This document shows, in pieces, positions 9,593-63,701 of a stretch of DNA of 64,000 nucleotides; position 1 is the first letter of the stretch; each line of letters starts with the position of its first letter. The notes beneath the pieces are model-generated. The model was not told where the DNA came from, made no database searches, and was given only the letters and a program-made list of their open reading frames with translations. Source of the stretch: a virus. Its lineage: Duplodnaviria; Caudoviricetes. The stretch lies in IMG/VR virus record IMGVR_UViG_3300028533_000484, positions 32,001 to 96,000 of that record, one strand, 5' to 3'. The position numbers and the translations under genes were made by a program.

Positions 9593-9712
9593 TCGCAGAA
9601 ATTGTTCCTATTAACTCGGTATCATAAACCAGTAGTCGAGGTTCGAATCCTCGGGTCCCCAATTTCGTGGGGATTTGGTGTAATGGTAGCACGCTATATA
9701 TACAATTCGCGA
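9593..9712 (+). ncRNA. Clamp element 1 enclosing a circularly permuted tRNA (CAT anticodon, 9618-9695)
   Basis: Order is anticodon loop ATCATAA, T arm CGAGG-TTCGAAT-CCTCG, 3' acceptor GGTCCCC, short loop, 5' acceptor GGGGATT, D arm; flanked by AATTGT-TCCT-AT / AT-ACAATT-C-GCGA. Confidence 0.8.
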
Positions 9713-9719
9713 TTTTTTT

Positions 9720-9803
9720 GGAAGTATGGATGAATTGGCAAAATCACCAACCTGCTAAGTTGGTTACCTTCGGGTAGTGCGTGGTCGGGACACGCTGCTT
9801 CCG
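9720..9803 (+). tRNA. tRNA-Ser(GCT), atypical T loop
   Basis: CCAAC-CTGCTAA-GTTGG; long variable arm TACC-TTCG-GGTA; T loop GTCGGGA. Confidence 0.8.
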
Positions 9804-10120
9804 CTAAAGCTAAGCTGTAAAAGTTCCCTACAGATTTAGCAACACTGTTTGACGGTATCAGGTGTAAAAGCTTTACACAAGTCAAAACCGAAAAGAGTAA
9901 TTTGCTTTTCAACTTTGATAAAAACCGGCCTTTCGTAAGCGCTTACGAATAAAAAAGGGAACACCTTTTTTGAATACAGTAATATAGACTTTTCTATATT
10001 GTAAAAAGTTGTGGCTATGCAACTTAAAAAGATACAACACTGCAGGAAGTCAGCTGTTTGACTTTGTTAACGTTGTTACATAGTGTTTGTGAGTTGCTGC
10101 AAACTGCAACTCCTTTTCAA

Positions 10121-10219
10121 CACTGTCTAGCAAAATACAGATAGGCGCGCGCTTATTGCTTATCTAGGATAATGTGCCATTGCGCGATGGAGGTCCAGGT
10201 TCGAGTCCTGGGGCAGTGA
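10121..10219 (+). ncRNA. tRNA-like RNA with elongated anticodon arm
   Basis: CACTGTC/GGCAGTG acceptor; CCAGG-TTCGAGT-CCTGG T arm; no 7-nt anticodon loop. Confidence 0.55.
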
Positions 10220-10288
10220 AAATCGATACTCGACGGAGTTCGATAGTAGGCGACCCATATCCGACGGGAGTGGTTGAATCGTCGAAGT

Positions 10289-10382
10289 GGCTTATTCGTC
10301 TAAGGTTGAGTAACGTCAACTAAAGGTAAGGACGCTGGTGTATATTCACCGGAAATGGTGAGTTCAATTCTCCCATAAGTTA
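10289..10382 (+). ncRNA. tRNA-like RNA with hairpin inserted in the D loop and an irregular anticodon loop
   Basis: GGCTTAT/ATAAGTT acceptor; GGTTGA..TCAACT insert; CTGGTG-TATATT-CACCGG arm; TTCAATT T loop. Confidence 0.55.
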
Positions 10383-10391
10383 CATTTTTGT

Positions 10392-10448
10392 AGTGCATAA
10401 GTTGTTCCTATTGTAAAGAATGCTTTTGGTTTTTATACAACTCGCACT
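10392..10448 (+). repeat. Clamp element 2 (no tRNA cargo)
   Basis: AGTGC-ATA-AGTTGT-TCCT-AT ... AT-ACAACT-C-GCACT. Confidence 0.75.
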
Positions 10449-10673
10449 TTTATTTTTAAGCTAAAACGGTCAAATAACATTAGCAAGCAAGACCTGTTGT
10501 CCGTTATCTGAAGGGTCTCTAAACAAGGTGTTAATGTGTATGACAATTTCTAGATCATGTCACGTGGCTTAAGGGATGAGCCCTTCACAAGGAGTAAGAG
10601 TCTCCGGAGTTATAGGATTAGAAATTGTAACGAAACAGCACCCTTTTGACAGAGGTTGTGATAGGACGTTTGT

Positions 10674-10747
10674 GGAGTTATGGAGCAGATGGTTAGCTCA
10701 GGTGACTGTCACTCACCAGGTCACGGGTTCGAGTCCCGTTAACTCCG
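10674..10747 (+). tRNA. tRNA-Asp(GTC)
   Basis: GGAGTTA/TAACTCC acceptor; GGTGA-CTGTCAC-TCACC. Confidence 0.9.
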
Positions 10748-10808
10748 TACAAAAGTAGCATTAGTGGTTGCAAACACGAGGCTATTGTAGGAAATTCGAA
10801 ATTCCTAT

Positions 10809-10973
10809 CGATTATATGGTGTATGGGTGCACAGCCGGCCCGAGTACTTGACAATAAGGCCTGACGATAGCTTACGACCTGCATTAAGCAGACGACGGAG
10901 CGACAATAGGGCCTGACGATAAAGGAAACAGGTCGGCAGGGTGAGTTAAGGTTCGAGTCCTTCGTATAATTGT
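10809..10973 (+). ncRNA. tRNA-like scaffold with a large repeat-containing domain in place of the anticodon loop
   Basis: CGATTATA/TATAATTG acceptor-like stem, D arm, GCCGGCC/GGTCGGC stem, AAGG-TTCGAGT-CCTT T arm; two copies of GACAATARGGCCTGACGATA. Confidence 0.6.
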
Positions 10974-10979
10974 ATTTAC

Positions 10980-11052
10980 AGCGGGATAAAGCAGTTGGCA
11001 GCTTGCGAGCCCCATAAGCTCGATGTCGAAGGTTCGAGTCCTTCTCCCGCCA
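10980..11052 (+). tRNA. tRNA-Met(CAT), initiator-like 1:72 mismatch
   Basis: CGAGC-CCCATAA-GCTCG; A1:C72 mismatch; C at position 33. Confidence 0.8.
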
Positions 11053-11057
11053 AAACA

Positions 11058-11181
11058 AACGCATAGGTTGTTCCTATTCTCAGAGTTGTCGAGTAGCTCA
11101 ATTTGGTAGAGCACTAGATATCTAATCTAGAGGTTGTGAGTTCGAATCTCACCTCAACGTCCATGATATACAACTCGCGTT
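11058..11181 (+). repeat. Clamp element 3 enclosing a linear tRNA
   Basis: AACGC-ATA-GGTTGT-TCCT-AT ... AT-ACAACT-C-GCGTT. Confidence 0.75.
11087..11163 (+). tRNA. tRNA-Arg(TCT), A33 variant, with encoded CCA
   Basis: CTAGA-TATCTAA-TCTAG; GTGAG-TTCGAAT-CTCAC; ends TCCA. Confidence 0.75.
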
Positions 11182-11199
11182 CGATTTTAGAAAATTATT

Positions 11200-11325
11200 G
11201 TGCCAAAGCTGTTCCTATTTCAAAGGACTGTTAATCCGTGGGTCGTTGGTTCGATTCCAACCTGACTTCGAAATTAAGTAGAAGCAGTAGCTCAGTGGTA
11301 GAGCAACGCAAAATACAGCTCGCAC
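11200..11325 (+). ncRNA. Clamp element 4 enclosing a circularly permuted tRNA-Asn(GTT) (11225-11307)
   Basis: GGA-CTGTTAA-TCCGT, T arm GTTGG-TTCGATT-CCAAC, 3' acceptor CTGACTTC, loop, 5' acceptor GAAGCAG, D arm TAGCTCAGTGGTAGAGC; flanked by AGCTGT-TCCT-ATTT / AAAT-ACAGCT-C-GCAC. Confidence 0.85.
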
Positions 11326-11330
11326 TTTTT

Positions 11331-11404
11331 GCGTTGGTAGTTTAATTGGATAAAACACCGGCCATTCCAGGTCGGAATTATTAGTTCGAATCTAATTCAA
11401 CGCT
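11331..11404 (+). tRNA. tRNA-Gly(TCC)-like with 8-nt anticodon loop
   Basis: GCGTTGG/TCAACGC acceptor, U73; CCGGC-CATTCCAG-GTCGG. Confidence 0.6.
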
Positions 11405-11411
11405 TTTATTT

Positions 11412-11483
11412 GGCCGCTTCGTCTATCGGTTAGGACGGGTCCCTCTCAAGGATCAAAGAGCAGTTCGATTCTGCTAGTGGCTA
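11412..11483 (+). tRNA. tRNA-Glu(CTC)
   Basis: GGTCC-CTCTCAA-GGATC; canonical D and T arms. Confidence 0.85.
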
Positions 11484-11502
11484 ATTTTTAAGGTTGCAAA
11501 GA

Positions 11503-11946
11503 GTGAAAACTTTATTAAATGAAATGGCTACTTTGCGAAAAGCAAAAACAGGTTTACCTGTAAACATCTATGTTGATGATGCAGGTACATACTTGAATAG
11601 TGGACATTTTAAAAGAATAAAATTTCAAAAAGATTATGGCAATGCTCCAGTAACTAGGGAATTTGCTACAATGACATTGGAAGGAGACTTAATTCAAAGT
11701 ACAATGTCAAATTGTGAAGTTAAAGCAAAAGACCTGAACAAAATAAGGAATTTTGTTTTAAATAATAAAGAAGCTTTAAGTCATCTAGCAGATGCAGAAA
11801 TTGATATTTTTGAATTTTCAGAAATAATGATTCCTGGAGGAGAGAAAGCTACTTTAGAGCAAATTAAAGCTCAGAGGACTTTATTGGATGAGCTTTTGGA
11901 TAATTTAAAACCTGAAAACGCTAATTTAAGTTTTAGTGTTAGATAA
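11503..11946 (+). CDS. Conserved phage hypothetical protein
   Basis: LNEMA..KTGLPVNIYVDD..H..RIKF pattern; GTG start is probable. Confidence 0.7.
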   Translation: MKTLLNEMATLRKAKTGLPVNIYVDDAGTYLNSGHFKRIKFQKDYGNAPVTREFATMTLEGDLIQSTMSNCEVKAKDLNKIRNFVLNNKEALSHLADAEIDIFEFSEIMIPGGEKATLEQIKAQRTLLDELLDNLKPENANLSFSVR

Positions 11947-12011
11947 AAAATATTTAAAAAAATAAAATTACAAAAAGTTAACCTTTCCAAATTGGAAAGG
12001 CTTTTCTATTT

Positions 12012-12161
12012 TTAACTACAATTAAGTATTTCGTCAGAAGGATCAAACATATAATCTTGTACTTGATTTACATCCTCCTCGTAATCTAAATCATTATTAG
12101 AAGAAGCTTCTACCAACAATCCCCACAATTCAAATTCCTCGGATAGATTTTCGTAACTCAA
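12012..12161 (-). CDS. Small acidic protein (49 aa, not in ORF track)
   Basis: ACTAATT motif, AGGAGG RBS, TTG start, open to TAA next to a hairpin terminator. Confidence 0.55.
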   Translation of the reverse strand: MSYENLSEEFELWGLLVEASSNNDLDYEEDVNQVQDYMFDPSDEILNCS

Positions 12162-12243
12162 TTAAAGCCTCCTAGACTTCTTTTTTCTTAATTAGTACAG
12201 ATATAGGTAATTCCAACTATATTGATGTAAAAAGGAAAAAAGA

Positions 12244-13167
12244 ATGAAATCAACAAGTATTAGTAGAATTAAGAATTTTAAACATTGTCCACTGTCATAT
12301 TTGTACACTTACATTGACAAGTTTGTACCGACTGAACAACAACCGATCTTTGTACAAACCAAAGGTCTGGTTCTACATCAAGTTTTCGAAAGTATTCTCA
12401 AATATGAAAACTACAAAGATGGAGAACCTACTCTTCCTTACAGAAAAGCTGACACAAAAACAGTTATGGATGTTTTTAAAGCTGCAATGGAAGAAAATGA
12501 ATTTCCAATAGACAAAGCTATTGAATTTAATCTTAAACTTGGATTAAAGAGATGGCTTGACTTTAAGCATAATTATTTGGATAAGAATAGTCACGTAATG
12601 TATGCTGAAAAGCAGTATAACGAAATTCTTTTTGGCGAAACAAAAACAATTACAATTTTGGACTTGTTAGAGGATTGTGGTGATGGAAATTATATCATTT
12701 ACGACTACAAAACTCCAAAATCTGTAGATGTAAACAGATACAAAGAGCAGTTGCTTTTGTATGCATATACTATGGCCTGTGTAAAAGGAATTATTACACC
12801 AGGTTCAAACGACTATGATACAGTTAAACAACATTTTAAACTCTTCGTATTCTTTCCTCTGGTAAGTGGTAATTTTGATACATACGAAAAGTGCTTAAAG
12901 CAGGTGGAATTTACAGCTAATGAGGTTAAACATGTTGTAGAAGATGTAAAAAGAACTTGCGACATTATCGATGGTTTTGACTTTACAAAGCCTGCAGAAG
13001 TTTTGCAGTTAAGTAGTCCTGATTTTCAATGTAAGTGGTGTGCATTTTACGGAGCACATGCACAACCAGATACTGTATCAAAAAATGGTAGAGCTTTCGA
13101 AGGTTGTCCAATAACTGCATTTATGGGAGTAGATCCAATCAATGCAGAATTTCAACCTGTCCTTTAA
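12244..13167 (+). CDS. PD-(D/E)XK nuclease, Cas4/RecB/AddB-like with Fe-S cysteines
   Basis: SISRI..F..CP, GLVLH, E..LD..DYKT, QLLLY, CKWC...C. Confidence 0.85.
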   Translation: MKSTSISRIKNFKHCPLSYLYTYIDKFVPTEQQPIFVQTKGLVLHQVFESILKYENYKDGEPTLPYRKADTKTVMDVFKAAMEENEFPIDKAIEFNLKLGLKRWLDFKHNYLDKNSHVMYAEKQYNEILFGETKTITILDLLEDCGDGNYIIYDYKTPKSVDVNRYKEQLLLYAYTMACVKGIITPGSNDYDTVKQHFKLFVFFPLVSGNFDTYEKCLKQVEFTANEVKHVVEDVKRTCDIIDGFDFTKPAEVLQLSSPDFQCKWCAFYGAHAQPDTVSKNGRAFEGCPITAFMGVDPINAEFQPVL

Positions 13168-13169
13168 TA

Positions 13170-13877
13170 CTACCAATACTCGCCTTCATCCAAAACAGCA
13201 AACTTGTTAAGAACTTGGTTAAGGATGTTGGTTGAAATAAGTGTATGACTATCTTCAGTACTGTTAAAATTATCTGAAGGTAGTGTATACTCTAATTCAT
13301 CTGTTACATGTAGACTAGCTTTATTTCCAGTAGTTTGATTTTTTAATAACCAAATTCTATCATCGAAAGGTGGAATATAATTTTGTAGAGTCTCTTGTAA
13401 ATTCTTACCAATGTAAATCCAACCTGAAAAATACAACTTGTCAAGATCTAAGCCTGTCTCAAGTCTACAATCGTTGAAATTGAAATTAGGATCAACACTT
13501 GTATAAGGTAAAGGATAGTTTCCATCCGAAAAACTAGGTGTATAATCCCTAGAGATAGTCATCGAAGGAAGGATGACATTTCTTAAAGTCTCTTCATCGT
13601 TATTGAACTCTAATTTCCAAGACCTTCCTTGTCTAAACTCTTTCGTAAGCTGAAAGTTGGATAAATAAATCAGATAATCGTATGTATTCTCGTGCTCTGT
13701 TTTCTGAAAAACATATACTGTATAATTTGAGACTCCATCTGGATTAGACTTAATAAAAGAGTCTCTTGCTTCTGAAATATCAGGAGCTACAGTCGGTATA
13801 GCATCTACAAATACATACTTTGACCAAACCTGATTAAACTCTGTAAAATTGTTATTATTCTCGACAATATTGCTCAT
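13170..13877 (-). CDS. Putative virion structural protein
   Basis: Likely start MSNIVE at 13877 just after ACTAATT; N/S/T-rich composition. Confidence 0.6.
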   Translation of the reverse strand: MSNIVENNNNFTEFNQVWSKYVFVDAIPTVAPDISEARDSFIKSNPDGVSNYTVYVFQKTEHENTYDYLIYLSNFQLTKEFRQGRSWKLEFNNDEETLRNVILPSMTISRDYTPSFSDGNYPLPYTSVDPNFNFNDCRLETGLDLDKLYFSGWIYIGKNLQETLQNYIPPFDDRIWLLKNQTTGNKASLHVTDELEYTLPSDNFNSTEDSHTLISTNILNQVLNKFAVLDEGEYW

Positions 13878-13928
13878 TATAACCAAAATTAGTTGCAATC
13901 AAAACACTTCCAAACTAATTTTGTAAAT

Positions 13929-15344
13929 ATGGAACAGCACAATTACACAGTTACAACTCCTTTAAAGAGTGTTTTGATTGAGGAGATATTTATAACTTCG
14001 CAACTACAACTTTTAAGTCTTGAAGACAACTTCATAGAGAGTTCTTTGCAAAATATGACTCGCGAAGAGTATGAAATTGTATCTCAATTGCAGCAATTGG
14101 CAATTGAGGACTTCGCTATTGTTCCAGATAATTTACAGTTAGCTAGTTTTTATTTCGCTGAAAGATTTATGTATTCAGATCTAACAGGTTTTGAAAATCA
14201 TAAATACAAGATAAACTGCAAACTTGCAAACTTGTCAGAAGATTACAAGGAAATTACAACAAACTTGGTTGAAAGACCCTGGACAATCATACTAGCAGTT
14301 AATCACAACTTAGCACAAGCTTCTAACAATAAACATGTTGAAGAGCTTTTAGATCCACAGGAGTTCAACACTGCTTTAGAAAAGTTAAAAAAACAGTTTG
14401 ATGAGGATGAGATAAATTGGCAAGAATATGGCGTTGGTGTAATAAACACTTGGTTGGATAAAGTAGCAGCTAGTAAAATTGATGAATGGAACGGAAATTT
14501 TCAGGATGGTGTAAAGGCTGTTCAAAAGTTCAACAATGCTCTTCAAAATTACACTGGTATATCTGCAGGTAGTGTAACAGGAAAAATTGCTTCAGGTATA
14601 TCAGGAGCAATGAGAGAAGTTAGCTCTGCTTTTAGATCATCAAATTCAGAACTTGCAGCCAAATTGTCGAGTTCAGGTGCTAGTCCTCTTATAAGTGTTC
14701 CAGATCCTTCTAAAGCACATTATGTTGGCGAAGATAATCCTTCAGCTACTTTACATAGAATGCTTACTTCGCCAGATGCTCAATTGCAGAGATTTGTTGC
14801 ATATTTTACAACTAAGGATAAAAATGGTGAAGAGCATCCTCTAAAGATGTTGTCTCCTGACGAGCAGTCCGACTACTTTTATTACTTTTACTCAAACGGT
14901 TTCAGTTGCAATCCTGTAAAGAAAACCACTACAGAATTAAGCTATGGTGCATTTAAGACAACTATTGCTTTGGAAAAGCCAGATGTAAATAATACATTCA
15001 ATTTTTCTCTTCCTACTGATCTTCAAGCTACTTTTTGGAAATTTGTTCTAGAAAAAGGTCTAGGAGTAAACATTAAGGATAATATATATTCAAGTGAAAA
15101 CTTTATCGAAGGTTATCAATCTATAAATCTCAATTTTGCACTGCTTCAGAGTACAACAGATGGTACAAAACTTAATGCAGATACAGCTAGAGTGAATAAA
15201 TTTGTTTTGGAAAACATATATTTCTCGAACATCGATGCTTTGAAATTTCAGCAAGATTTTGGTACTAGTCCTGTTAAAACAGGTATAAAAGGTATCTATA
15301 AACGCTTAACTTGGTATCACAATGCTTTGCTTTTAGATAGATAA
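13929..15344 (+). CDS. Putative virion (tail/baseplate) protein
   Basis: Likely start MEQHNY at 13929 just after ACTAATT; function inferred from promoter class only. Confidence 0.55.
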   Translation: MEQHNYTVTTPLKSVLIEEIFITSQLQLLSLEDNFIESSLQNMTREEYEIVSQLQQLAIEDFAIVPDNLQLASFYFAERFMYSDLTGFENHKYKINCKLANLSEDYKEITTNLVERPWTIILAVNHNLAQASNNKHVEELLDPQEFNTALEKLKKQFDEDEINWQEYGVGVINTWLDKVAASKIDEWNGNFQDGVKAVQKFNNALQNYTGISAGSVTGKIASGISGAMREVSSAFRSSNSELAAKLSSSGASPLISVPDPSKAHYVGEDNPSATLHRMLTSPDAQLQRFVAYFTTKDKNGEEHPLKMLSPDEQSDYFYYFYSNGFSCNPVKKTTTELSYGAFKTTIALEKPDVNNTFNFSLPTDLQATFWKFVLEKGLGVNIKDNIYSSENFIEGYQSINLNFALLQSTTDGTKLNADTARVNKFVLENIYFSNIDALKFQQDFGTSPVKTGIKGIYKRLTWYHNALLLDR

Positions 15345-15413
15345 GAATTATAGAAAGCACATATTCAATTTTACTATAATCTAGAAAAATAACTAGAAAT
15401 GGAGTAAAATTGA

Positions 15414-38951: not shown

Positions 38952-38954
38952 AAA

Positions 38955-39613: not shown

Positions 39614-41329
39614 ATGAAACTTAAGTCATTAAAATCTGTAGAATTAAAAGCTGTTGAAATTCCAAAACGAATTACTGTTCCGGATTTTGCAGATTCAAAT
39701 AAATTTTCAGACCGAGTATTCGGTGCTTTTTGTAGAATAAATCCAGATCTTCCTTGTATGCAGGATGAAACATTCCTTAAAAGAGTTTTTACAGTATTAA
39801 AAGCTGCTGGTGGAGATGATTATTTAGAAAAAGCTAAACAATGTAAACTCTCAGAACTTGTTAGTAAGGATCCTGAAATTAAGAAATGGCGTCAGTGGTA
39901 TGCAACCGAAAAGTTGCGATTAGCTGAATGGAGAAAAGCCAATAAAGAAGAAATTGCAAAACGTAAAGCAGAATTTAAAGATAAATACGGATATGCAATT
40001 GTAGATGGTGTAGAAGAACCACTACAAAGTTATGCAGTCGAGCCAGAAGGTTTCTTCTTCGGTCGAGGAGATTCACCAATCAGTGGTTACTGGAAATTCG
40101 AAAACACTGCAGCAGACCTTAGAATTAATTCAAATAGTAAAAATCTTCCAGTAGTCATCTATACAGGTGAAGATGAAGAAAAATTAATTACAGATAATTT
40201 CCCTTGGAAAGTAACTTGGGATCCAGATTCACATTTTGCTGCACAATATGATATTAAAATAGGTATTCCAAATTCTGATGGAACAATTAAAACAATTAAA
40301 GCCGAAAAGTATAAAATGATTCAATTCGGGGCTACATCTTCAGTGAAAAAGGAAGGTCAGTCGAAGAAGTATGCTGCAGCTTCTGAGCTTGGAAAATCTT
40401 ATGAAAAAATTATTGAAAATGTGAAAAAGGAATTTCAAAAAGCAAGAAGCAGTAACAAAATTGCAGATTTAAGTACAGCGATTGCAGTATTTATGCTTTT
40501 TGAAAAAGGTATTCGTATTGGATCTGCTAAACCAACTGTCAACGGTACAAAAGGTCTTCTTTCTCTAGAATGGGGAAAAGATGTTAAGAGAGATGGTAAT
40601 AAAATAAAATTTAATTTTTATGGAAAAGATTCTGTAAAAGATACAAGTTCGATCGAAACTGAATATGCTGATGTAATTGAAAAAGGTTGGAGTAAATATA
40701 CAAAACTTTTTACAGATAAAGCTTCTATTAAAGAGTATATTGGAAAACTTGCACCTTCTGTAAGCGATGTATTTTCACCTAAACTTTGTCGTACGGCAGT
40801 TGCTGCTTCAGTAATGTTAAAAGCTCTTGACGAAGTTGTTGATAAGTACAAACTTACAAAAGAATCGCCAGAAGCTCTTAAAAAACTTGCATTTGATGAA
40901 GCAAATATGGCTGTTGCAAGACGCTTAAATCATCAACGCGGTGTAAACAAAGTTGCAGAAGCAAAACGTAATGAAGCAAATAAACTTAAAGAAGAAGCAA
41001 TTAAAGCAAGAGTTATTAAAGTAAAAGAAATGAATGCAAAGAAACAGGAAAGAATTAAGGCTCTTAAAGCAGCTAAAAAAGATGGTTGGAAAGAAAAGGT
41101 TGCAAAAATTCAAGAACAAATGCTAAAAGCAGATGAAAGACTTGCACAAAGTAAACGTAATTTGAAGTTCAAAGAAGAAAACGGAAACATTACAGCTTCT
41201 ACTTCGAAGGCTGCTTATATTGATCCTTCGATTGTTGCAGATTTCTGTACAAGAGTAGATTTGAAGCTTGAAAAAGTTTATACAAAGAGCCAGATAGAAC
41301 AGTTCAGTCAGTTCTTTGGTGAAGATTAA
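39614..41329 (+). CDS. DNA topoisomerase IB, long (eukaryote-like) type
   Basis: VEPEGFFFGRG; catalytic pentad candidates GIRIG (R), FYGKDSV (K), KLCRT (R), LNHQR (H), TSKAAYIDP (Y); coiled-coil linker between H and Y. Confidence 0.9.
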   Translation: MKLKSLKSVELKAVEIPKRITVPDFADSNKFSDRVFGAFCRINPDLPCMQDETFLKRVFTVLKAAGGDDYLEKAKQCKLSELVSKDPEIKKWRQWYATEKLRLAEWRKANKEEIAKRKAEFKDKYGYAIVDGVEEPLQSYAVEPEGFFFGRGDSPISGYWKFENTAADLRINSNSKNLPVVIYTGEDEEKLITDNFPWKVTWDPDSHFAAQYDIKIGIPNSDGTIKTIKAEKYKMIQFGATSSVKKEGQSKKYAAASELGKSYEKIIENVKKEFQKARSSNKIADLSTAIAVFMLFEKGIRIGSAKPTVNGTKGLLSLEWGKDVKRDGNKIKFNFYGKDSVKDTSSIETEYADVIEKGWSKYTKLFTDKASIKEYIGKLAPSVSDVFSPKLCRTAVAASVMLKALDEVVDKYKLTKESPEALKKLAFDEANMAVARRLNHQRGVNKVAEAKRNEANKLKEEAIKARVIKVKEMNAKKQERIKALKAAKKDGWKEKVAKIQEQMLKADERLAQSKRNLKFKEENGNITASTSKAAYIDPSIVADFCTRVDLKLEKVYTKSQIEQFSQFFGED

Positions 41330-58029: not shown

Positions 58030-58042
58030 ACAAATAAACCTA

Positions 58043-58411
58043 CTAATCTACAGGACTCTGTGCAGCCTCACCGAATAGATCGGATCTTTCTAAAGGAATT
58101 TGTGCTAAGGCATCGTCCATATTATAAGCTTCGTTTAATCTAGTCTGAGCTGGATGCGCAATTGCTGCAAACTCATTGTCAATATCCTCATCTAAGATAT
58201 CTATAATTGGTTTTTCTGAAGCTGCTTTTGTTGCTTCTTTTCCTGATCTAAGAGCTTGTAACTCTCTATACTGAGCAGTACGTACTTCATCTACAACTTC
58301 CTCTTCTGTAGGTACCAGTTTCATAAGATTTTTCAAAAAAGTCTTTACGGTTTGTTCAGCAACTTCTGCTGCAATTTCTACAGCTTCATCATATGTTATG
58401 TATTGTTCCAT
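58043..58411 (-). CDS. Hypothetical protein
   Basis: GAGG RBS. Confidence 0.7.
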   Translation of the reverse strand: MEQYITYDEAVEIAAEVAEQTVKTFLKNLMKLVPTEEEVVDEVRTAQYRELQALRSGKEATKAASEKPIIDILDEDIDNEFAAIAHPAQTRLNEAYNMDDALAQIPLERSDLFGEAAQSPVD

Positions 58412-58443
58412 TTTTTTAACCTCTACTATCTACAGAATATAGT

Positions 58444-59448
58444 TTAGATTTTACTTACAAGTTCTTTAAGCTCTTCATCTGGATACTGTTGCAATACCCA
58501 CTTACCTATTCTTGAAGCTAAATCTTCCAAACCACCTGTTGTCTCGCTCTGAGTAACTAAGTGCTGTAAATCACTATTTTCATGATTTACATCCTCATTT
58601 TCGTTTTGATTGTTAATTAAAAGTTGTTCTGTAATCTCTGTGATTAATTCATCTCTCTTCTTTGTATCAATAGTACCAGGAGAGTTTTCTATAAAGTTGT
58701 TAACCCAATCCTTGATATGTCTATTCAAGTCTTTATTATTGAATGTATTAGGATATCTATCCTTTACACCTTTCAAAGCACTGTTTATAGCTGTACCGTT
58801 TCTGCAGGCAGAATATATAGCATCTACAATACGACTATGCAATCGAACAATTGGATTTTCATTAGTTTGTGCATCTAACATGTTGCTCACAACTTTTTTC
58901 TCTGGCTCAGTATTAATTTTATTTGCTACATTTGTAAAGTAATCCTCTACAGTCATATCCGAAGGAGATGAAAGTCCACTCATTCCTAGCAATGTTTCAT
59001 GAAAATGAAATGTGTCTTCTAGAAAGTTTACTGCAAGTTCATTAGCTTCGAAAGCAGAAGCTTTACCTCCAAATAAATGTTTGAAATACTGGAAGAAATC
59101 TTTATTTGAATTCTCTCTAATGTGACCAATAAGCTCTTGAATATATCTTTTACCTTTTTCAGGTGATTTTATCACATCGTCATTAGGAAAAAAAGTTTTC
59201 TCTAAACATTTAGAATAATAAAAAAGAAATGAGGCTTGTAGTTTAGGAATAAAATTAGGACACTCTAATTGTAATCTGTATCTAAGTTTTTTCCAATTCT
59301 CATCTTGCGAATCTAACATCTGTAAAAAGGAATATATAGAACTTGTTACTTCTTGTAATTCAGGAACTGTAGCTGCATTAACATTGTTAAGAGCTGCATG
59401 AAGTTTTCCCAAATCCTGAATATATGTAAAATTTAACCTACTGCTCAC
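58444..59448 (-). CDS. Hypothetical helical protein
   Basis: AAGGAG RBS; 334 aa. Confidence 0.7.
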   Translation of the reverse strand: MSSRLNFTYIQDLGKLHAALNNVNAATVPELQEVTSSIYSFLQMLDSQDENWKKLRYRLQLECPNFIPKLQASFLFYYSKCLEKTFFPNDDVIKSPEKGKRYIQELIGHIRENSNKDFFQYFKHLFGGKASAFEANELAVNFLEDTFHFHETLLGMSGLSSPSDMTVEDYFTNVANKINTEPEKKVVSNMLDAQTNENPIVRLHSRIVDAIYSACRNGTAINSALKGVKDRYPNTFNNKDLNRHIKDWVNNFIENSPGTIDTKKRDELITEITEQLLINNQNENEDVNHENSDLQHLVTQSETTGGLEDLASRIGKWVLQQYPDEELKELVSKI

Positions 59449-59451
59449 TTA

Positions 59452-59898
59452 TTACTCCTTTTCAGATTTTGTTGCAACCAATGCTTCTAGAGAAGCTGCT
59501 CTCAACTTTCCTAAAAAGTCTTTTAAGCACAATCCAACATCTGCAGGTGACTGAGCTTTTTTCATTCTTGAAAAGATTTCAGGTAAACCTTTTACTTCTA
59601 CGAAAGGATTGGCCTTACTTACAGTTTTAGATGTAGTTTTAGTTTCAGTAGATATCTCATCACTTTTTTCAACGGAATCGTCTTCAGTTGAATCTTCATC
59701 CTCAGCTACATCATCTTCTTCATCTACCTCTTCGTCAGATGCTTCAGTATCCTCTTCATCATCCTTTTCATCATCCGGTTCAGCACCAGCCTCTTTCAAA
59801 TTAAGATTATCTGAATCTTTATAATCATCAAGATTCAACATATAATCTTCTTTAAGATTTAAAAGATTTTTTATAGCAGTGTCTTTTGATTTTTTCAT
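59452..59898 (-). CDS. Acidic prohead core-like protein
   Basis: LKED/LKEA motifs and a long D/E tract. Confidence 0.55.
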   Translation of the reverse strand: MKKSKDTAIKNLLNLKEDYMLNLDDYKDSDNLNLKEAGAEPDDEKDDEEDTEASDEEVDEEDDVAEDEDSTEDDSVEKSDEISTETKTTSKTVSKANPFVEVKGLPEIFSRMKKAQSPADVGLCLKDFLGKLRAASLEALVATKSEKE

Positions 59899-59917
59899 AT
59901 TGTTTTCCTCGCTTTAA

Positions 59918-60244
59918 TTAGTTTTTTGTTAAAAAAGTTTCAATTCTGCGGATTCTTTCAGACTGAGAACTTAAGTTTTTTTGAAATCTTTCTATAGATT
60001 CTCGAGTTAATTTCTTTGAAGTACGTTTCATGTTTTTCATTTCAAGAAGAGGATTTTTTACTTCATATTGATCTTCAACATCCTCATTTAATTTTTTCTG
60101 TCTTTTATTAAAATACTTGTTAAAATCTGCATCGAAGTTTTCTTGGAGATCTTGAAGCTCAAGCTCGTAATCTCTAGCTTGCATGTAATCAAAATCATCA
60201 AAATTAACAGTATCATTGTATGACATATCTAATAAATTATTCAT
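59918..60244 (-). CDS. Hypothetical head-associated protein
   Basis: ACTAAAT motif; LQE, LNE and LLE motifs. Confidence 0.6.
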   Translation of the reverse strand: MNNLLDMSYNDTVNFDDFDYMQARDYELELQDLQENFDADFNKYFNKRQKKLNEDVEDQYEVKNPLLEMKNMKRTSKKLTRESIERFQKNLSSQSERIRRIETFLTKN

Positions 60245-60357
60245 ATATATATGATTTAGTTCTTACAAACAGAAAAAAGAACTTTTTTGAAATATTTATA
60301 TAGTTATAAACTATAATATTACTGAAGCAAATATTAAATTAAAGTTTCTTTAACAAC

Positions 60358-60429
60358 GCATCTATAGCTTAATGGATAAAGCTTCTACCTCCTAAGTAGA
60401 GGATGCAGGTTCGATTCCTACTAGGTGCT
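60358..60429 (+). tRNA. tRNA-Arg(CCT)
   Basis: TCTAC-CTCCTAA-GTAGA; GCATCTA/TAGGTGC acceptor. Confidence 0.9.
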
Positions 60430-60530
60430 AAAGGTTGGCAGTCAAACCTTTAAGACTCCATTTTTTCTTCTGGAAATATTTTGATTTATTTTCAGAAGAA
60501 AATTAAACTTATAACAAGTGAGGTACAGAA

Positions 60531-60692
60531 TTGGAAAGATTGGAAAGAATTGTAGATTGGCTTTTCGATACACATGATAAGGTTTTGTTTGTTGAAGATA
60601 TTAGTGGTTTTGGAGCTCTATTTCTTTTTGGAACTATGATTTTTGTTGCTGTGTTGTGTTGCAGCAAAAAGCTCAGAAGCAAGTTCTTTTAG
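60531..60692 (+). CDS. Small membrane protein (53 aa, not in ORF track)
   Basis: GAGGT RBS, TTG start, one hydrophobic helix, basic tail. Confidence 0.5.
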   Translation: MERLERIVDWLFDTHDKVLFVEDISGFGALFLFGTMIFVAVLCCSKKLRSKFF

Positions 60693-60750
60693 GTGAATTT
60701 TTCAGATTGCACTAACTATATTACAAGCATAAATTGAAGGAGTAGATATC

Positions 60751-60861
60751 ATGACAAAGACATTTGTAACATCTAATAACATGACAAGTTCTTATCAATG
60801 CTGTGATACTATCCAATATTCATATTGTTCGTCAATCTATTTTAGAGGTGACAACAGTTGA
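60751..60861 (+). CDS. Putative leader peptide 1 (36 aa: MTKTFVTSNNMTSSYQCCDTIQYSYCSSIYFRGDNS)
   Basis: ACTATATT motif, AAGGAG RBS, stop codon abuts an antiterminator stem. Confidence 0.7.
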   Translation: MTKTFVTSNNMTSSYQCCDTIQYSYCSSIYFRGDNS

Positions 60862-60926
60862 CCTTGTGCAAATAAAAAATGTTTGAAGAGTTGCACAGGG
60901 TTCCTAGAAATAGGAACTTTTTTATT
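60861..60926 (+). promoter_or_regulatory. Attenuator 1 (antiterminator/terminator) before tRNA-Tyr
   Basis: ACCTTGTGCAA/TTGCACAGGGT overlaps terminator AGGGTTCCTA-GAAA-TAGGAACTTT-TTT. Confidence 0.7.
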
Positions 60927-60940
60927 CTTCAAACAAGTTT

Positions 60941-61021
60941 GGGTCAGTCGAGCAATTGGTTGCTCAGCGGACTGTAAATCCGTGGCCTATGGCATTGGGG
61001 GTTCGAATCCCTCCTGGCCCA
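60941..61021 (+). tRNA. tRNA-Tyr(GTA)
   Basis: GCGGA-CTGTAAA-TCCGT; long variable arm. Confidence 0.92.
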
Positions 61022-61116
61022 ATATCACATTAAATCAACCAGTTTGTGAAAAGAGTTAATTTTTTTAACTATAATTAAATTATTAGCACTAATTAATTAA
61101 AGAAGGAGAAAAGATT

Positions 61117-61260
61117 ATGAAAAATTTTGTAACAAAACATTCGAACATAATTACAAAACAGATGTGTCAATCTGCTCTCCATACACTTTGCAATATTTTT
61201 GCTGACTCTGATTTTCAAACTAATGGGAAAGTGAAATGCGAAGGAGACTTCAAGTCTTGA
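61117..61260 (+). CDS. Putative leader peptide 2 (47 aa: MKNFVTKHSN...KCEGDFKS)
   Basis: ACTATAAT and ACTAATT motifs, AAGGAG RBS; last codons form the antiterminator strand. Confidence 0.7.
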   Translation: MKNFVTKHSNIITKQMCQSALHTLCNIFADSDFQTNGKVKCEGDFKS

Positions 61261-61321
61261 GATAATTAATAATTTAGTTATTTACAAGGCTTGAATCGAA
61301 AAGGTTCAAGCCTTTTATTTT
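61249..61321 (+). promoter_or_regulatory. Attenuator 2 before tRNA-Ile and downstream RNAs
   Basis: TTCAAGTCTTG (61249-61259) can pair with CAAGGCTTGAA (61285-61295), the 5' strand of terminator AAGGCTTGAATC-GAAAA-GGTTCAAGCCTT-TTATTTT. Confidence 0.75.
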
Positions 61322-61325
61322 GCTT

Positions 61326-61398
61326 AGGATGTTAGTACACCGGTTTAGTATTTTAGTCTGATAAACTAAAGAAAGAAGTTCAACTCTTCTACATCCTA
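61326..61398 (+). tRNA. tRNA-Ile(GAT), AT-rich
   Basis: TTAGT-CTGATAA-ACTAA; AGGATGT/ACATCCT acceptor. Confidence 0.8.
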
Positions 61399-61399
61399 T

Positions 61400-61620
61400 A
61401 TAGTTAAACAAAAGCGTCGATTAAAACTGGTTCGAGTAATTGAGGTAACGTTCAGTAAATGAAAGAACAAAGATAATAACGGACTGAGGTAGAAACATTG
61501 TCAATCTTGGGTGTCCTGCCCGTCAGAAGAGTAATACTCTTCTTCAAGAATAAGGTGACGGATTGATGGTGTTGAAGGTTGGCTGGAGACGGCAGCGATA
61601 AATCCAGTTGAGTTTGACTT
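61400..61620 (+). ncRNA. Unidentified structured RNA (~220 nt)
   Basis: Ends pair (AGTTAAAC/GTTTGACT, AACTGG/CCAGTT); internal CCGTCA/TGACGG and GAAGAG-TAATA-CTCTTC stems; no ORF. Confidence 0.5.
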
Positions 61621-61696
61621 ATTTTTAACATTTTTTATGAAACAGCAATTAGCTTTTCAACTATAATATATATGTTAAAAATATTAAATTATTTAT

Positions 61697-61770
61697 AGTT
61701 CCATAGAACAACAGGTCCAGTTCACGGCCCTTTCAAGGCTGAGATCCGAGTTCAAGTCTCGGTGGAACTA
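61697..61770 (+). tRNA. tRNA-Glu(TTC)
   Basis: CGGCC-CTTTCAA-GGCTG; AGTTCCA/TGGAACT acceptor. Confidence 0.85.
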
Positions 61771-61971
61771 AAGCTTATGTTCCTAACGGTTCGACTCCGT
61801 ATGAAAATCTTGAACTGTATAAGTGCGGTATAAGCCCGATGAGATGTCAAGATATAAACGGCATAGGAAAGGAAGCATCTGACTTAAGGTTTCAGGATAC
61901 AGTAGTAAACCTAGCGAAGTAGCGAAGGCCAAGTGAAAAGCGAACTCTTGCAAGAATCCCTTATAATGGGT

Positions 61972-62051
61972 GAAAGTTATAGTATAATGGAAATACAACA
62001 GCCGAGGTTATCTGGGCTGGAGATTGAAGGTTCGAGTCCTTCTGACTTTCA
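61972..62051 (+). ncRNA. tRNA-like RNA with 11-nt anticodon loop
   Basis: GAAAGTTA/TGACTTTC stem; CAGCC-GAGGTTATCTG-GGCTG; canonical T arm. Confidence 0.6.
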
Positions 62052-62056
62052 TATTT

Positions 62057-62130
62057 GCATCAGTAGCTCAGTTGGTTAGAGCGCCTGCCTTCCAAGCAGG
62101 ATGTCGAGGGTTCGAGCCCCTTCTGGTGCT
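62057..62130 (+). tRNA. tRNA-Gly(TCC)
   Basis: CCTGC-CTTCCAA-GCAGG; canonical arms. Confidence 0.93.
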
Positions 62131-62133
62131 CTA

Positions 62134-62297
62134 GGTGCAGCAATGCCGTGGATAGCACGTTACTAGGACTAATCTAATTGTACAAAGGAATTAGCCAGAG
62201 GATATGGTAACATACCTCGTTCTACGACTAGGTTGTTAAGGATGTTATACCTGACGTGAGACAGCCATAAAGGTTTCGTTTAGAAGATTGCTGCACC
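62134..62297 (+). ncRNA. Unidentified multibranched RNA (~165 nt)
   Basis: 11-bp closing stem GGTGCAGCAAT/ATTGCTGCACC enclosing four hairpins. Confidence 0.6.
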
Positions 62298-62373
62298 TTT
62301 AAGCAGGTTGAAACGAATAGAAACTGAATCGAAAGATTCTAATGTAGGAGTAAGCACAAGAAGCTTATTGCAT

Positions 62374-62446
62374 GGGATATTGGTAAAATGGTGCATACGC
62401 CTGACTGTCACTCAGGAGAGCGCGAGTTCAATTCTCGCATATCCCG
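62374..62446 (+). tRNA. tRNA-Asp(GTC)
   Basis: CCTGA-CTGTCAC-TCAGG; GGGATAT/ATATCCC acceptor. Confidence 0.85.
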
Positions 62447-62455
62447 TTTTTTCTT

Positions 62456-62551
62456 GGACTGGTCGTATAGAGGTCAATTACAGGAGGAATGCGGTCCATT
62501 GGACCAAAGCCTCCTGCCATAGCTACGTAGGTTCGAATCCTACCCAGTCCG
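62456..62551 (+). ncRNA. tRNA-like RNA with hairpin replacing the anticodon loop
   Basis: GGACTGG/CCAGTCC acceptor; GGAGG-[AATGC GGTCC-ATT-GGACC AAAG]-CCTCC; GTAGG-TTCGAAT-CCTAC. Confidence 0.65.
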
Positions 62552-62560
62552 TAATGCATT

Positions 62561-62634
62561 GGAGTGTTAGCTCAGTTGGTAGTAGCAAGCGGCTGTTAAC
62601 CGCTAGGTCGCAGGTTCGAGTCCTGCACACTCCG
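62561..62634 (+). tRNA. tRNA-Asn(GTT)
   Basis: AGCGG-CTGTTAA-CCGCT; GGAGTGT/ACACTCC acceptor. Confidence 0.88.
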
Positions 62635-62717
62635 AAAACCTTAACATCTTACCTTTATGGTCCTAGGGCTGTAATGTTAGGTGGGGACCACCGGAGATGT
62701 TCCTAACATTGTTTTAT

Positions 62718-62790
62718 GCTACCTTAGCAAAATGGCTAATGCGCGTGATTTGTAATCTCGAGATTGTGGGTTCGAGTCCTACAGGTAGCT
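62718..62790 (+). tRNA. tRNA-Thr(TGT)
   Basis: CGTGA-TTTGTAA-TCTCG; GCTACCT/AGGTAGC acceptor. Confidence 0.85.
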
Positions 62791-62792
62791 TT

Positions 62793-62865
62793 CGCGGATG
62801 GGTGAAACGGAATTCATGCCAGCCTCATAAGCTGAAGATAGCAGGTTCGACTCCTGTATCCGCAA
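62793..62865 (+). tRNA. tRNA-Met(CAT), initiator-like C1:A72
   Basis: CAGC-CTCATAA-GCTG; CGCGGAT/ATCCGCA acceptor. Confidence 0.82.
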
Positions 62866-62866
62866 T

Positions 62867-62995
62867 AAAAACATTTAGCGGTTTGTGAAAGTGGAAGGCA
62901 TTCCTTTGGACGACATGAAAGTCATAGCAAATCATAATCGAAACTGGTAAGCCTTAGCGCTGAGTACACTTACCGTTGAGTAGGCTAAATGTTTT
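62867..62995 (+). ncRNA. Unidentified structured RNA (~130 nt)
   Basis: 12-bp closing stem AAAACATTTAGC/GCTAAATGTTTT with internal stems. Confidence 0.55.
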
Positions 62996-62999
62996 ACAT

Positions 63000-63071
63000 C
63001 GCCTGTTACCCAAGCAGTAAGGGAGCGGTCTGCAAAACCGTAATTCATAGGTGCAAATCCTATACAGGTGT
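63000..63071 (+). tRNA. tRNA-Cys(GCA)
   Basis: GCGGT-CTGCAAA-ACCGT; U73. Confidence 0.82.
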
Positions 63072-63075
63072 CTAA

Positions 63076-63231
63076 GGAATGGTAGCTTAGTCAAAAATAG
63101 TTTAGAAACTGCGCTGGCCGGTCGGCGGTTATAAATACTGAATTATTCAGTGTTAGGAAGCCTAAATGAAATATGCAGGAAAAGCGCTAACGAAACGTTA
63201 GAGAGTGTAAGTTCGAATCTTACCTATTCCT
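63076..63231 (+). ncRNA. tRNA-like scaffold with a large domain in the D loop and a truncated anticodon loop
   Basis: GGAATGG/CTATTCC acceptor; GCTT...AAGC D stem about 90 nt apart; CTAACG-AAA-CGTTAG; GTAAG-TTCGAAT-CTTAC. Confidence 0.6.
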
Positions 63232-63298
63232 TGAGGTAGATATAGGTGTTCGGTGCAAGTCCGGATTTAAGATAGTCAAGCCTTAAGCTACCATAAAA

Positions 63299-63505
63299 GT
63301 GGAGACTTCTGTGACTATACAGAAAACTATAGCAACATCTCAGCCAAGTGTTAATAATTGCTCTTTAGATAGTAAAATCGAAAGAGCTTATATGAAAGGC
63401 GCGCTTGCAATGTATGAGTTTTTGCAAGAAGAAAAATTAGTGCCTATTATAACAACTGGGTGTCAAGAAATGTTATGGAAAAAGTTTAAGGAAAAGAATA
63501 GCTAA
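63299..63505 (+). CDS. Small hypothetical protein within the tRNA cluster
   Basis: 68-aa ORF; no clear RBS. Confidence 0.35.
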   Translation: METSVTIQKTIATSQPSVNNCSLDSKIERAYMKGALAMYEFLQEEKLVPIITTGCQEMLWKKFKEKNS

Positions 63506-63566
63506 TTCGCATGCTTTCTTGATATATTGGATTACAGGTCTATGAAAATGACTTGTTTTTTTACAT

Positions 63567-63638
63567 TCCTCCATAGTGTAGTTGGTAGCACTTGAGAATT
63601 TGGGTCTCACAGGCTGGGTTCGAGTCCTAGCGGAGGAA
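63567..63638 (+). tRNA. tRNA-Gln(TTG)
   Basis: TGAGA-ATTTGGG-TCTCA; U1:A72. Confidence 0.8.
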
Positions 63639-63640
63639 AT

Positions 63641-63701
63641 AAAGCAAAGGTTGTTCCTATTAAAAGTTATTTTATTGGAAAAATTGTGTACAACCCGCTT
63701 T
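63641..63701 (+). repeat. Clamp element 5 (no tRNA cargo)
   Basis: AAAGC-AAA-GGTTGT-TCCT-AT ... GT-ACAACC-C-GCTTT. Confidence 0.75.

What the first reader, a model, noticed from the sequence alone, without database searches (positions are those of the whole stretch)
9593..63701. Five-copy covarying RNA 'clamp' motif acting as a cassette for different cargoes
Seen: five elements (9593-9712, 10392-10448, 11058-11181, 11200-11325, 63641-63701) share one architecture: outer helix (TCGC/GCGA, AGTGC/GCACT, AACGC/GCGTT, GTGC/GCAC, AAAGC/GCTTT), a 3-nt A-rich versus single C internal loop, a 6-bp helix (AATTGT/ACAATT, AGTTGT/ACAACT, GGTTGT/ACAACT, AGCTGT/ACAGCT, GGTTGT/ACAACC), an invariant TCCT bulge, then AT pairs. 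Helix sequences change with compensation while the unpaired TCCT and C are invariant, which points to RNA-level selection. Cargo differs: two permuted tRNAs, one linear tRNA-Arg with CCA, and two short AT-rich loops. Inference: a protein-binding or processing site (for a ribonuclease/ligase, or a Ro60-type protein that binds a bulged helix) used modularly in both tRNA clusters.
Basis: partly seen in the sequence, partly recalled or inferred. Interest (0 to 1): 0.85.

Follow-up and report, generated by a model that had tools for sequence, protein, structure and literature searches.

The report
Phage tRNA-mimic RNAs sharing protein handle
A huge phage scatters among its tRNA genes a family of small RNAs that all share one conserved bulged stem but carry different pieces of tRNA. 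That stem also sits directly in front of the gene for an uncharacterised protein in phages and gut bacteria, which points to an undescribed RNA-protein particle built on the plan of Ro60 with its Y RNAs.

Summary
The phage record has seven copies: five in the window and two just past its end. A covariance model finds 86 copies in other huge phages and in Bacteroidales-type genomes. Nine of 13 base pairs show compensatory changes, while the unpaired A-N-A, UCCU and C stay fixed.

The cargo is always tRNA-derived or a plain hairpin. It includes permuted whole tRNA mimics, linear tRNA bodies with CCA, D-arm plus anticodon arm, an anticodon arm alone, and a T-arm alone.

The main new result is a protein partner. 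A handle lies 10-200 nt upstream of a conserved 590-690 aa protein with a helical N-domain and a TerD-like C-domain. This held in all six phage records examined, in four bacterial loci, and in four of five loci fetched starting from the protein.

This phage's own copy lies 20.7 kb before the window. A minimal handle abuts its ribosome-binding site.

No TROVE/Ro60 protein, no Rfam family at threshold and no Pfam family matches, so this is an analogue of Ro60/Y RNA, not a member.

Binding and function were not tested.

This scan has already followed up the same RNA-protein pair on at least eight other genomes. What is new here is that the handles are dispersed through tRNA arrays and carry a range of tRNA parts.

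The parts
9590..9715 (+). Handle RNA E1. Outer helix 9593-9596 / 9709-9712. AGA loop 9597-9599 opposite C 9708. Inner helix 9600-9605 / 9702-9707. UCCU bulge 9606-9609.
   Evidence: sequence; model R1, 45 bits, E 1e-9; minimum-energy fold keeps the handle.
9614..9697 (+). Cargo of E1: a circularly permuted tRNA-like domain. Order: anticodon arm with loop AUCAUAA (CAU), T arm, acceptor stem closed by a loop with no CCA, then D arm.
   Evidence: Read from the sequence; T arm found by script; no Rfam tRNA or YrlA hit.
10390..10450 (+). Handle RNA E2 with a short AU-rich loop as cargo.
   Evidence: 62.3 bits, E 2e-14; fold gives outer and inner helices exactly.
11056..11183 (+). Handle RNA E3, wrapping a linear tRNA-like cargo.
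   Evidence: 39.1 bits, E 5e-8.
11087..11163 (+). Cargo of E3: tRNA-Arg(UCU)-like with encoded CCA. The anticodon loop UAUCUAA has A at position 33.
   Evidence: ARAGORN; Rfam tRNA, 56.2 bits, alignment shown.
11197..11328 (+). Handle RNA E4. Its cargo (about 11219-11314) is a permuted tRNA-like domain: anticodon loop CUGUUAA (GUU), T arm, loop-closed acceptor stem, D arm.
   Evidence: 36 bits, E 3e-7; Rfam YrlA, 34.2 bits against a threshold of 69, on the cargo.
63639..63703 (+). Handle RNA E5 with a short AU-rich cargo, lying between tRNA-Gln and tRNA-Ala.
   Evidence: (61.5 bits, E 3e-14).

Best explanation
The five elements are members of a large family of small RNAs. Their paired 5' and 3' ends form a conserved 'handle': an outer helix, an A-N-A loop opposite a single C, a 6-bp helix ending G-C and U-A, a UCCU bulge, then an A-U pair.

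The handle is most likely the binding site of a conserved 590-690 aa protein with an alpha-helical N-domain and a TerD-like beta-sandwich. This phage encodes that protein 20.7 kb before the window (record positions 9183-11246).

A minimal handle sits in the protein's own leader, next to the ribosome-binding site. This suggests the protein represses its own translation.

The apical cargo is interchangeable. In huge phages it is built from tRNA parts. The particle would therefore work like Ro60 with Y RNAs such as YrlA: the handle holds the protein, and the tRNA-like module engages tRNA-binding enzymes or stands in for tRNA.

Because the elements lie between tRNA genes, ordinary tRNA end-processing would release each one as a discrete RNA with paired ends.

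What is shown: the structure, the covariation, the family, and the genomic coupling to the protein gene. What is inferred: binding, autoregulation, release by tRNA processing, and any role in tRNA or RNA quality control, repair or counter-defence.
For: Family and structure:
- Model R1 finds 7 copies in this record and 5-9 or more in each of five other huge-phage records, always on the tRNA strand.
- In the 86-copy alignment, 9 of 13 pairs change on both sides.

Coupling to the protein gene:
- A homologue is present in 5 of 5 other handle-bearing phage records (41-47% identity), with a handle or an array of 4-9 handles directly upstream.
- This record's own copy, P0002, is preceded by a minimal handle ending 1 nt before GGAG and the ATG.
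- Chromosomal loci in Bacteroidales and Paludibacteraceae genomes show the same pairing next to cysS, feoB and ribosomal-protein genes.
- Protein-first test: 4 of 5 testable loci fetched from homologues carry a handle 14-35 nt upstream of the gene.

Protein:
- The model has mean pLDDT 87. Residues 395-550 match TerD (Z 10.3, rmsd 2.8 over 134 residues).
- The family has 1,119 clusters at E<=1e-30 and no Pfam family.

Cargo:
- It is built from tRNA parts.
- E4 gives a sub-threshold YrlA match on its T arm, closed acceptor stem and D arm.
Against: - No binding, expression or RNA-end data.
- One homologue locus (L236) has no handle upstream.
- The leader copy in this phage is degenerate: UCUC instead of UCCU, and only 5.6 bits.
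- Adjacency alone cannot separate 'RNA partner' from 'cis-regulatory operator'.
- The protein shows no recognisable RNA-binding fold.
- TerD domains are known as Ca2+-binding stress proteins, not RNA binders (my knowledge).
- For E3, RNase P processing of the enclosed tRNA would cut the handle apart.
Confidence: 0.7

Rival explanations
1. Processing cassette for tRNA maturation. The handle brings together the ends of permuted or caged tRNAs. A nuclease and a ligase such as RtcB then cut and join them, passing through a circular intermediate as in algal permuted tRNAs, to give working tRNAs.
For: - E1 and E4 have canonical 7-nt anticodon loops. Joining the 3' end to the 5' end restores a perfect anticodon stem.
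- One relative (L209) has CCA in the acceptor closing loop.
- RtcB is encoded in 4 of 5 handle-bearing phage records.
Against: - The distance from the UCCU bulge to the tRNA junction varies (5-8 nt on the 5' side), so a cut measured from the handle is unlikely.
- Both bulges lie on the same strand, so this is not a bulge-helix-bulge motif.
- Most cargo consists of fragments or plain hairpins. In other phages the linear cargo has tetraloops where the anticodon loop should be.
- The bacterial copies carry no tRNA part.
- Normal tRNA-Asn, tRNA-Met and tRNA-Arg(UCU) genes also exist in the record.
Confidence: 0.1
2. The handle is only a regulatory operator. The protein binds it solely to control its own synthesis. 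The copies in tRNA arrays are decoy operators that titrate the repressor when the arrays are transcribed, and the cargo is irrelevant.
For: A handle lies next to the start codon or ribosome-binding site in every phage record examined. In this phage the outer stem ends 1 nt before GGAG.
Against: - Arrays of 4-9 handles with conserved, distinct cargo classes recur across unrelated phages. Examples are the permuted Asn-like cargo in this window and in L071, and the D-arm plus GUU anticodon arm in L011, L071 and L090.
- The bacterial copies have a long GC-rich outer stem followed by a U-run, which looks like the end of a separate small RNA.
Confidence: 0.1
3. True Y RNAs of the Ro60/Rsr system: the handle binds a TROVE-domain Ro60 supplied by the host or the phage.
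For: - Sub-threshold Rfam YrlA hit on E4 (34.2 bits, E 5e-5).
- The 5' strand GUUCCUA resembles the vertebrate Ro-contact sequence GGUCCGA quoted in PMC4201824.
- Bacteroides thetaiotaomicron has a TROVE protein (control row).
Against: - No TROVE match in six phage records, two of them complete.
- No TROVE match in five bacterial genomes that carry the pair.
- TROVE found in only 2 of 61 genomes of that order.
- The bacterial Rsr motif GNCGAA is absent.
- The handle is coupled to a different protein. That protein shows no profile similarity to two TROVE proteins (probability 0.2%).
Confidence: 0.04
4. A DNA-level element, such as a recombination site or a miniature inverted-repeat element, that happens to flank tRNA genes.
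For: Inverted-repeat architecture with variable inserts, present in many copies.
Against: - About 24 G-U wobble cells in the helices would be A-C mismatches on the other strand.
- All copies lie on the strand of the tRNAs or of the partner gene.
- The cargo forms tRNA folds only as RNA of that strand.
Confidence: 0.02

Closest known systems
Ro60 (Rsr) with bacterial and phage Y RNAs YrlA/YrlB (Rfam RF02553; Chen et al. 2014, PMC4201824)
   Same: - Small RNAs whose paired ends form a conserved bulged protein-binding stem.
- A modular apical domain that in some members mimics tRNA (T arm, loop-closed acceptor stem, D arm).
- Several RNA paralogues per genome.
- RNA genes next to the protein gene.
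- Found in both bacteria and phages.
- RtcB often present in the same genomes.
   Different: - The protein has no detectable TROVE or vWA domain. It has an unmatched helical domain plus a TerD-like sandwich.
- The handle sequence and loop layout differ from the GNCGAA motif.
- Rfam score is 34 against a threshold of 69, and only on the cargo.
- The cargo range is much wider: anticodon arms alone, D arm plus anticodon arm, T arm alone, and linear tRNA with CCA.
- Here the RNAs are dispersed through tRNA arrays 30-88 kb from the gene.
Circularly permuted and split tRNA genes (Cyanidioschyzon merolae, Nanoarchaeum equitans)
   Same: In E1 and E4 the 3' half precedes the 5' half. A helix formed by the flanks holds the two ends together next to the anticodon stem.
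   Different: - No bulge-helix-bulge motif.
- Break points lie in the anticodon stem (28/29 to 31/32) and vary.
- The acceptor stem is closed by a loop, usually without CCA.
- The same flanking helix also encloses non-permuted and non-tRNA cargo, and occurs in bacteria without any tRNA part.
Autoregulatory operators of RNA-binding proteins (ribosomal-protein operons; the thrS operator that mimics a tRNA anticodon arm) - from my own knowledge
   Same: A copy of the protein's RNA target lies in its own leader beside the ribosome-binding site.
   Different: Here the 'true' targets are a multi-copy family of separate small RNAs, not rRNA or tRNA. Neither the protein nor its function is known.

Membership tests
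YrlA / Y RNA (Rfam RF02553) | Scores at or above the Rfam gathering threshold (69 bits) | tested here: not met
   Best hit is 34.2 bits, on E4 cargo only. A partial hit of 26.2 bits spans tRNA-Met into E3. E1, E2 and E5 give no hit.
YrlA / Y RNA (Rfam RF02553) | tRNA-like domain with T arm, loop-closed acceptor stem and D arm | tested here: met
   Present in E1 and E4. Absent from E2 and E5. E3 holds a linear tRNA instead.
YrlA / Y RNA (Rfam RF02553) | GNCGAA(N0-1)G motif near the 5' end, the proposed Rsr contact (PMC4201824) | tested here: not met
   The 5' strand reads GC-A(U/A)A-NNNNGU-UCCUAU in 86 copies.
YrlA / Y RNA (Rfam RF02553) | Encoded with, and bound by, a TROVE-domain Ro60 | tested here: not met
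   PF05731 was not found in six phage records or in five bacterial genomes carrying the pair. Binding itself cannot be tested here.
Permuted tRNA genes processed through a bulge-helix-bulge motif | 3' half upstream of 5' half | tested here: met
   E1 and E4. About 11 of 83 family members are of this type.
Permuted tRNA genes processed through a bulge-helix-bulge motif | Two 3-nt bulges on opposite strands separated by a 4-bp helix at the junction | tested here: not met
   The 3-nt loop and the 4-nt bulge lie on the same (5') strand, separated by 6 bp.
Permuted tRNA genes processed through a bulge-helix-bulge motif | Splicing endonuclease present and a circular intermediate formed | not tested
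   The endonuclease family was not searched and no RNA data could be obtained. RtcB ligase is present in 4 of 5 related phage records.
Handle RNA with helical + TerD-like protein (provisional family of this scan) | RNA matches the handle consensus | tested here: met
   All five window elements score 36-62 bits with model R1, which was built from other phages.
Handle RNA with helical + TerD-like protein (provisional family of this scan) | Partner protein encoded in the same genome with a handle upstream of its gene | tested here: met
   P0002 lies at record positions 9183-11246 (35% identity to bacterial P0001, E 6e-115), with a minimal handle at 9137-9172.
TerD domain (protein C-terminus) | TerD beta-sandwich fold and sequence family | tested here: inconclusive
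   The fold matches 2qz7 (Z 10.3) and 2kxt (Z 9.1) over residues 395-550. No Pfam family matches even at E<=10.

The most novel reading that the evidence does not exclude
Huge phages use one protein-binding handle as a display scaffold for interchangeable tRNA parts: whole mimics, acceptor/T bodies with CCA, bare anticodon arms of chosen identity (mostly GUU, GCA, GGU, UGA), and T arms. The helical + TerD protein particle would use these parts to capture, inhibit or redirect host enzymes that act on tRNA, such as anticodon nucleases and other tRNA-targeting defences, or repair and modification enzymes. That would make it a programmable tRNA-decoy or adaptor system with no described counterpart.
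Probability: 0.25. Interest if true: 0.9.

Novelty: new variant of a known kind. Interest (0 to 1): 0.8.

Why it matters
The pair would be a second, unrelated solution to the Ro60/Y-RNA design of one protein plus a set of modular small RNAs. It is common: at least 1,100 protein clusters at 50% identity, in phages and gut or rumen bacteria. Neither component has an Rfam or Pfam family that matches.

It would also explain part of the unannotated 'tRNA-like' sequence that fills the tRNA arrays of huge phages. Pieces called permuted or odd tRNAs may be ligands of a ribonucleoprotein rather than decoders.

The handle gives a short, well-defined RNA for testing binding. The range of cargo hints at which host tRNA-handling enzymes phages contend with.

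Tried and rejected
- Rfam at gathering and at permissive thresholds, on both clusters and on five bacterial loci: only tRNAs and a sub-threshold YrlA hit.
- TROVE/Ro60 searches in phage records and bacterial genomes: none found.
- Profile-profile comparison of the protein family against two TROVE proteins from the same bacterial order: probability 0.2%. The TROVE profile is thin, with only two sequences.
- PDB sequence-profile search: no hit.
- Fold searches of the N-domain (Foldseek PDB, VIA wide, ESM Atlas): only generic helical-hairpin or alpha-solenoid rows, plus the family's own unnamed, mostly viral clusters. Ro60 was not among the rows shown. This does not show that the fold is new.
- GenBank phages: the terminase finds only about 25% identity to actinophage terminases, so there is no close relative and no host clue.
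- Pfam on 28 window ORFs and on neighbours of the partner gene: no shared RNA enzyme.
- The simple promoter/terminator scan cannot see the long-range outer stem, so it was uninformative.
- Ideas considered from memory and dropped because the consensus does not fit: kink-turn, hairpin, hammerhead, twister and pistol ribozymes, integron attC sites, and an RNase III site.
- My script-based cargo scan gave a few false positives in coding DNA (L013, L135, L154).


Full report
**What is in the window.** The window is positions 32001-96000 of a 140,446-bp viral record that CheckV rates about 35% complete, so the phage is probably very large. It has about 33% G+C and two tRNA arrays on the + strand, at 9.2-11.5 kb and from 60.3 kb past the window end.

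A strict script scan of the whole record found seven copies, all on the + strand and all inside tRNA arrays. The two extra copies lie 3.0 and 3.4 kb beyond the window end.

Each element lies close to its neighbours. Where tRNAs flank it, the spacers are 2-9 nt in most cases. For example, tRNA-Glu ends at 9590, E1 starts at 9593 and ends at 9712, and tRNA-Ser starts at 9720. Normal tRNA 5' and 3' processing would therefore release each element as a separate RNA with paired ends. That step is inference.

**Is it more than chance?** Two pattern scans of viral contigs returned about 200 stretches. The three free inner-helix positions paired, and the outer GC was present, in 46 elements. I estimate fewer than one would do so by chance.

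I aligned 25 short copies from other phages and built covariance model R1. In window plus flank, R1 finds the seven copies at 36-62 bits, and the next hit has E 0.86.

In an 86-copy alignment from 40 loci, 91.9% of cells are paired against 71.9% in shuffles and 30-45% when the partner is slid. Nine of 13 pairs change on both sides, giving 254 such cells. About two dozen G-U cells, and the constant orientation relative to tRNAs, show that the structure belongs to the RNA of this strand.

The unpaired A-N-A, UCCU, AU and the lone C are invariant or nearly so. This is partly circular, because the model selects for them.

Across the family only GU/AC at the top of the inner helix is fixed, not TGT/ACA. 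Even the outer G-C pair switches to A-U in two copies. Minimum-energy folds reproduce the handle in six of the seven copies; E3 folds differently at its 5' end. Z-scores are modest, from -1.2 to -2.6.

**Cargo.** I read the sequences of about 80 distinct copies. The cargo falls into recurring classes:
- plain hairpins or AU-rich loops (E2, E5);
- a bare anticodon arm with a canonical 7-nt loop (GUU, GCA, GGU and UGA recur);
- a D arm plus an anticodon arm;
- a T arm alone;
- permuted whole tRNA mimics with a loop-closed acceptor stem (E1 with CAU, E4 with GUU; about 11 copies);
- linear tRNA bodies with encoded CCA (E3; about 12 copies).

In the linear class from other phages, the anticodon loop is replaced by a tetraloop, often GNRA. 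E3 keeps a 7-nt loop but has A at position 33. These cargoes therefore do not look like ordinary decoders.

The record also has normal tRNA-Asn(GUU), tRNA-Met(CAU) and tRNA-Arg(UCU) genes.

The junction between the handle and the tRNA part varies in length. The break in the permuted forms varies from 28/29 to 31/32.

**The partner protein.** A scan of prokaryotic genomes found handles in rumen and gut metagenome-assembled genomes, mostly Bacteroidales and Paludibacteraceae. Some lie on phage-like contigs full of tRNAs. Others lie in plain chromosomal settings beside feoB, cysS or rpsF-rpsR-rplI.

In L210, L214 and L217 the handle lies just upstream of mutually homologous proteins of roughly 590 aa (41-42% identity; L217 is cut off by the locus end) that have no Pfam family.

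This phage has its own copy, P0002: 687 aa, 35% identity, E 6e-115. It lies at record positions 9183-11246, which is 20.7 kb before the window. Just upstream is a minimal handle: a UUC/GAA outer stem (extendable by a U-A pair), an AAA loop, a GGCAGU/ACUGCC inner helix, a UCUC bulge and a 9-nt loop. The handle ends 1 nt before GGAG and the start codon.

All five other handle-bearing phage records examined encode a homologue. Each has a handle, or a tandem array of four or nine handles, directly upstream on the same strand. tblastn shows the same arrangement in further contigs, including L009, L010, L011, L041, L099 and L207.

As an independent test I started from protein homologues at 38-54% identity, fetched their loci and then ran R1. 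Four of five testable loci have a handle 14-35 nt before the start codon. L236 has none.

In the bacterial copies the outer stem is long and GC-rich and is followed by a U-run just before the gene. This looks like the 3' end of a separate small RNA, or like an attenuator. That reading is inference.

**What the protein is.** AlphaFold2 gives a confident model (pLDDT 87, pTM 0.81). Residues 395-550 form a TerD-like beta-sandwich (Z 10.3 to 2qz7 and 9.1 to 2kxt). Its D-x-D and SGD-x-T motifs recall the TerD calcium sites; that comparison rests on my knowledge of TerD.

The helical N-domain (1-365) carries several invariant basic residues. It found no convincing relative by Foldseek, by the wide structural search or in the ESM Atlas. 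Only weak alpha-solenoid rows and the family's own unnamed, mostly viral clusters appeared.

The family is large: 394 clusters at 90% identity and 1,119 clusters at 50% identity with E<=1e-30. The few that carry a name are called 'hypothetical'.

**Comparison with Ro60 and Y RNA.** The plan is the same: a conserved bulged stem formed by the RNA ends, modular apical domains that in some members mimic tRNA as in YrlA, several RNA paralogues, and RNA genes next to the protein gene in both bacteria and phages (PMC4201824). RtcB is encoded in four of five of the related phage records.

Membership fails on every testable point:
- The Rfam score is half the threshold and covers only the cargo.
- The GNCGAA motif is absent.
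- No TROVE protein was found in six phage records (two of them complete) or in five bacterial genomes carrying the pair.
- The protein family shows no profile similarity to TROVE.

So it works like a Ro/Y particle, by inference, but it is not one.

**Earlier work in this scan.** Notes from this scan show that the same RNA-protein pair has already been followed up on at least eight other genomes as 'Y-like RNAs with a helical + TerD partner'.

I reached the pairing through my own searches, and I treat those notes as leads only. Some of them call the helical domain Ro- or TROVE-like. My tests neither confirm nor exclude that.

This window adds two things. The handles can be dispersed through tRNA arrays 30-88 kb from the gene, not only arrayed in front of it. 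It also gives a view of how varied the tRNA-part cargo is.

**Verdict.** The Ro60 and processing-site alternatives are not supported.

The best explanation, at about 0.7, is a handle-RNA and helical/TerD-protein particle with autoregulation through a leader handle. Its biochemical role is open. My leading guess, at about 0.25, is that the tRNA-part cargo acts as an adaptor or decoy for host enzymes that handle or attack tRNA.

Noticed in passing
window 62447-62552; also 10140-10215, 10900-10965, 61990-62050, 63180-63235: Further tRNA-like pieces with canonical T arms that neither ARAGORN nor Rfam calls. For example, 62450-62552 has acceptor, D-like and T arms, but an extended hairpin replaces the anticodon loop. 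They lie outside any handle.
   Followed up: no
window 61400-61690, 61800-62050, 62130-62370, 62870-63000: G+C-richer, apparently structured spacers of 130-300 nt between tRNA genes. None matches an Rfam family at E<=1.
   Followed up: partly
window 11331-11404: A tRNA with an irregular anticodon loop: ARAGORN reports 'tRNA-???' with a 2-nt anticodon, while Rfam scores it as tRNA at 51 bits. It lies directly after E4.
   Followed up: no
window 39614-41329 (+): A eukaryotic-type topoisomerase IB (Pfam Topoisom_I, Topoisom_I_N, Topo_C_assoc) encoded by the phage.
   Followed up: no
window 7775-8500 (+) and 12244-13167 (+): A CYTH-domain protein and a PD-(D/E)XK nuclease flank the first tRNA array. 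Most large ORFs in the window have no Pfam family.
   Followed up: no
L203 2432-3183 and L204 1736-2063 (other phage records): Tandem arrays of nine and four handle RNAs, spaced 4-19 nt apart in L203, with no tRNA between them, directly upstream of the partner gene. Something other than tRNA processing must separate these units, if they are separated at all.
   Followed up: partly
L202 1784-1856, with RtcB at record G002 290196-291260: In one complete 416-kb phage genome, an RtcB ligase gene lies about 1.5 kb downstream of a handle RNA on the same strand.
   Followed up: no
L215 2996-3355 (Bacteroidales genome): A handle downstream of cysS is followed by only about 86 residues of similarity to the partner protein's N-terminus. 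The gene may be truncated or decayed.
   Followed up: no
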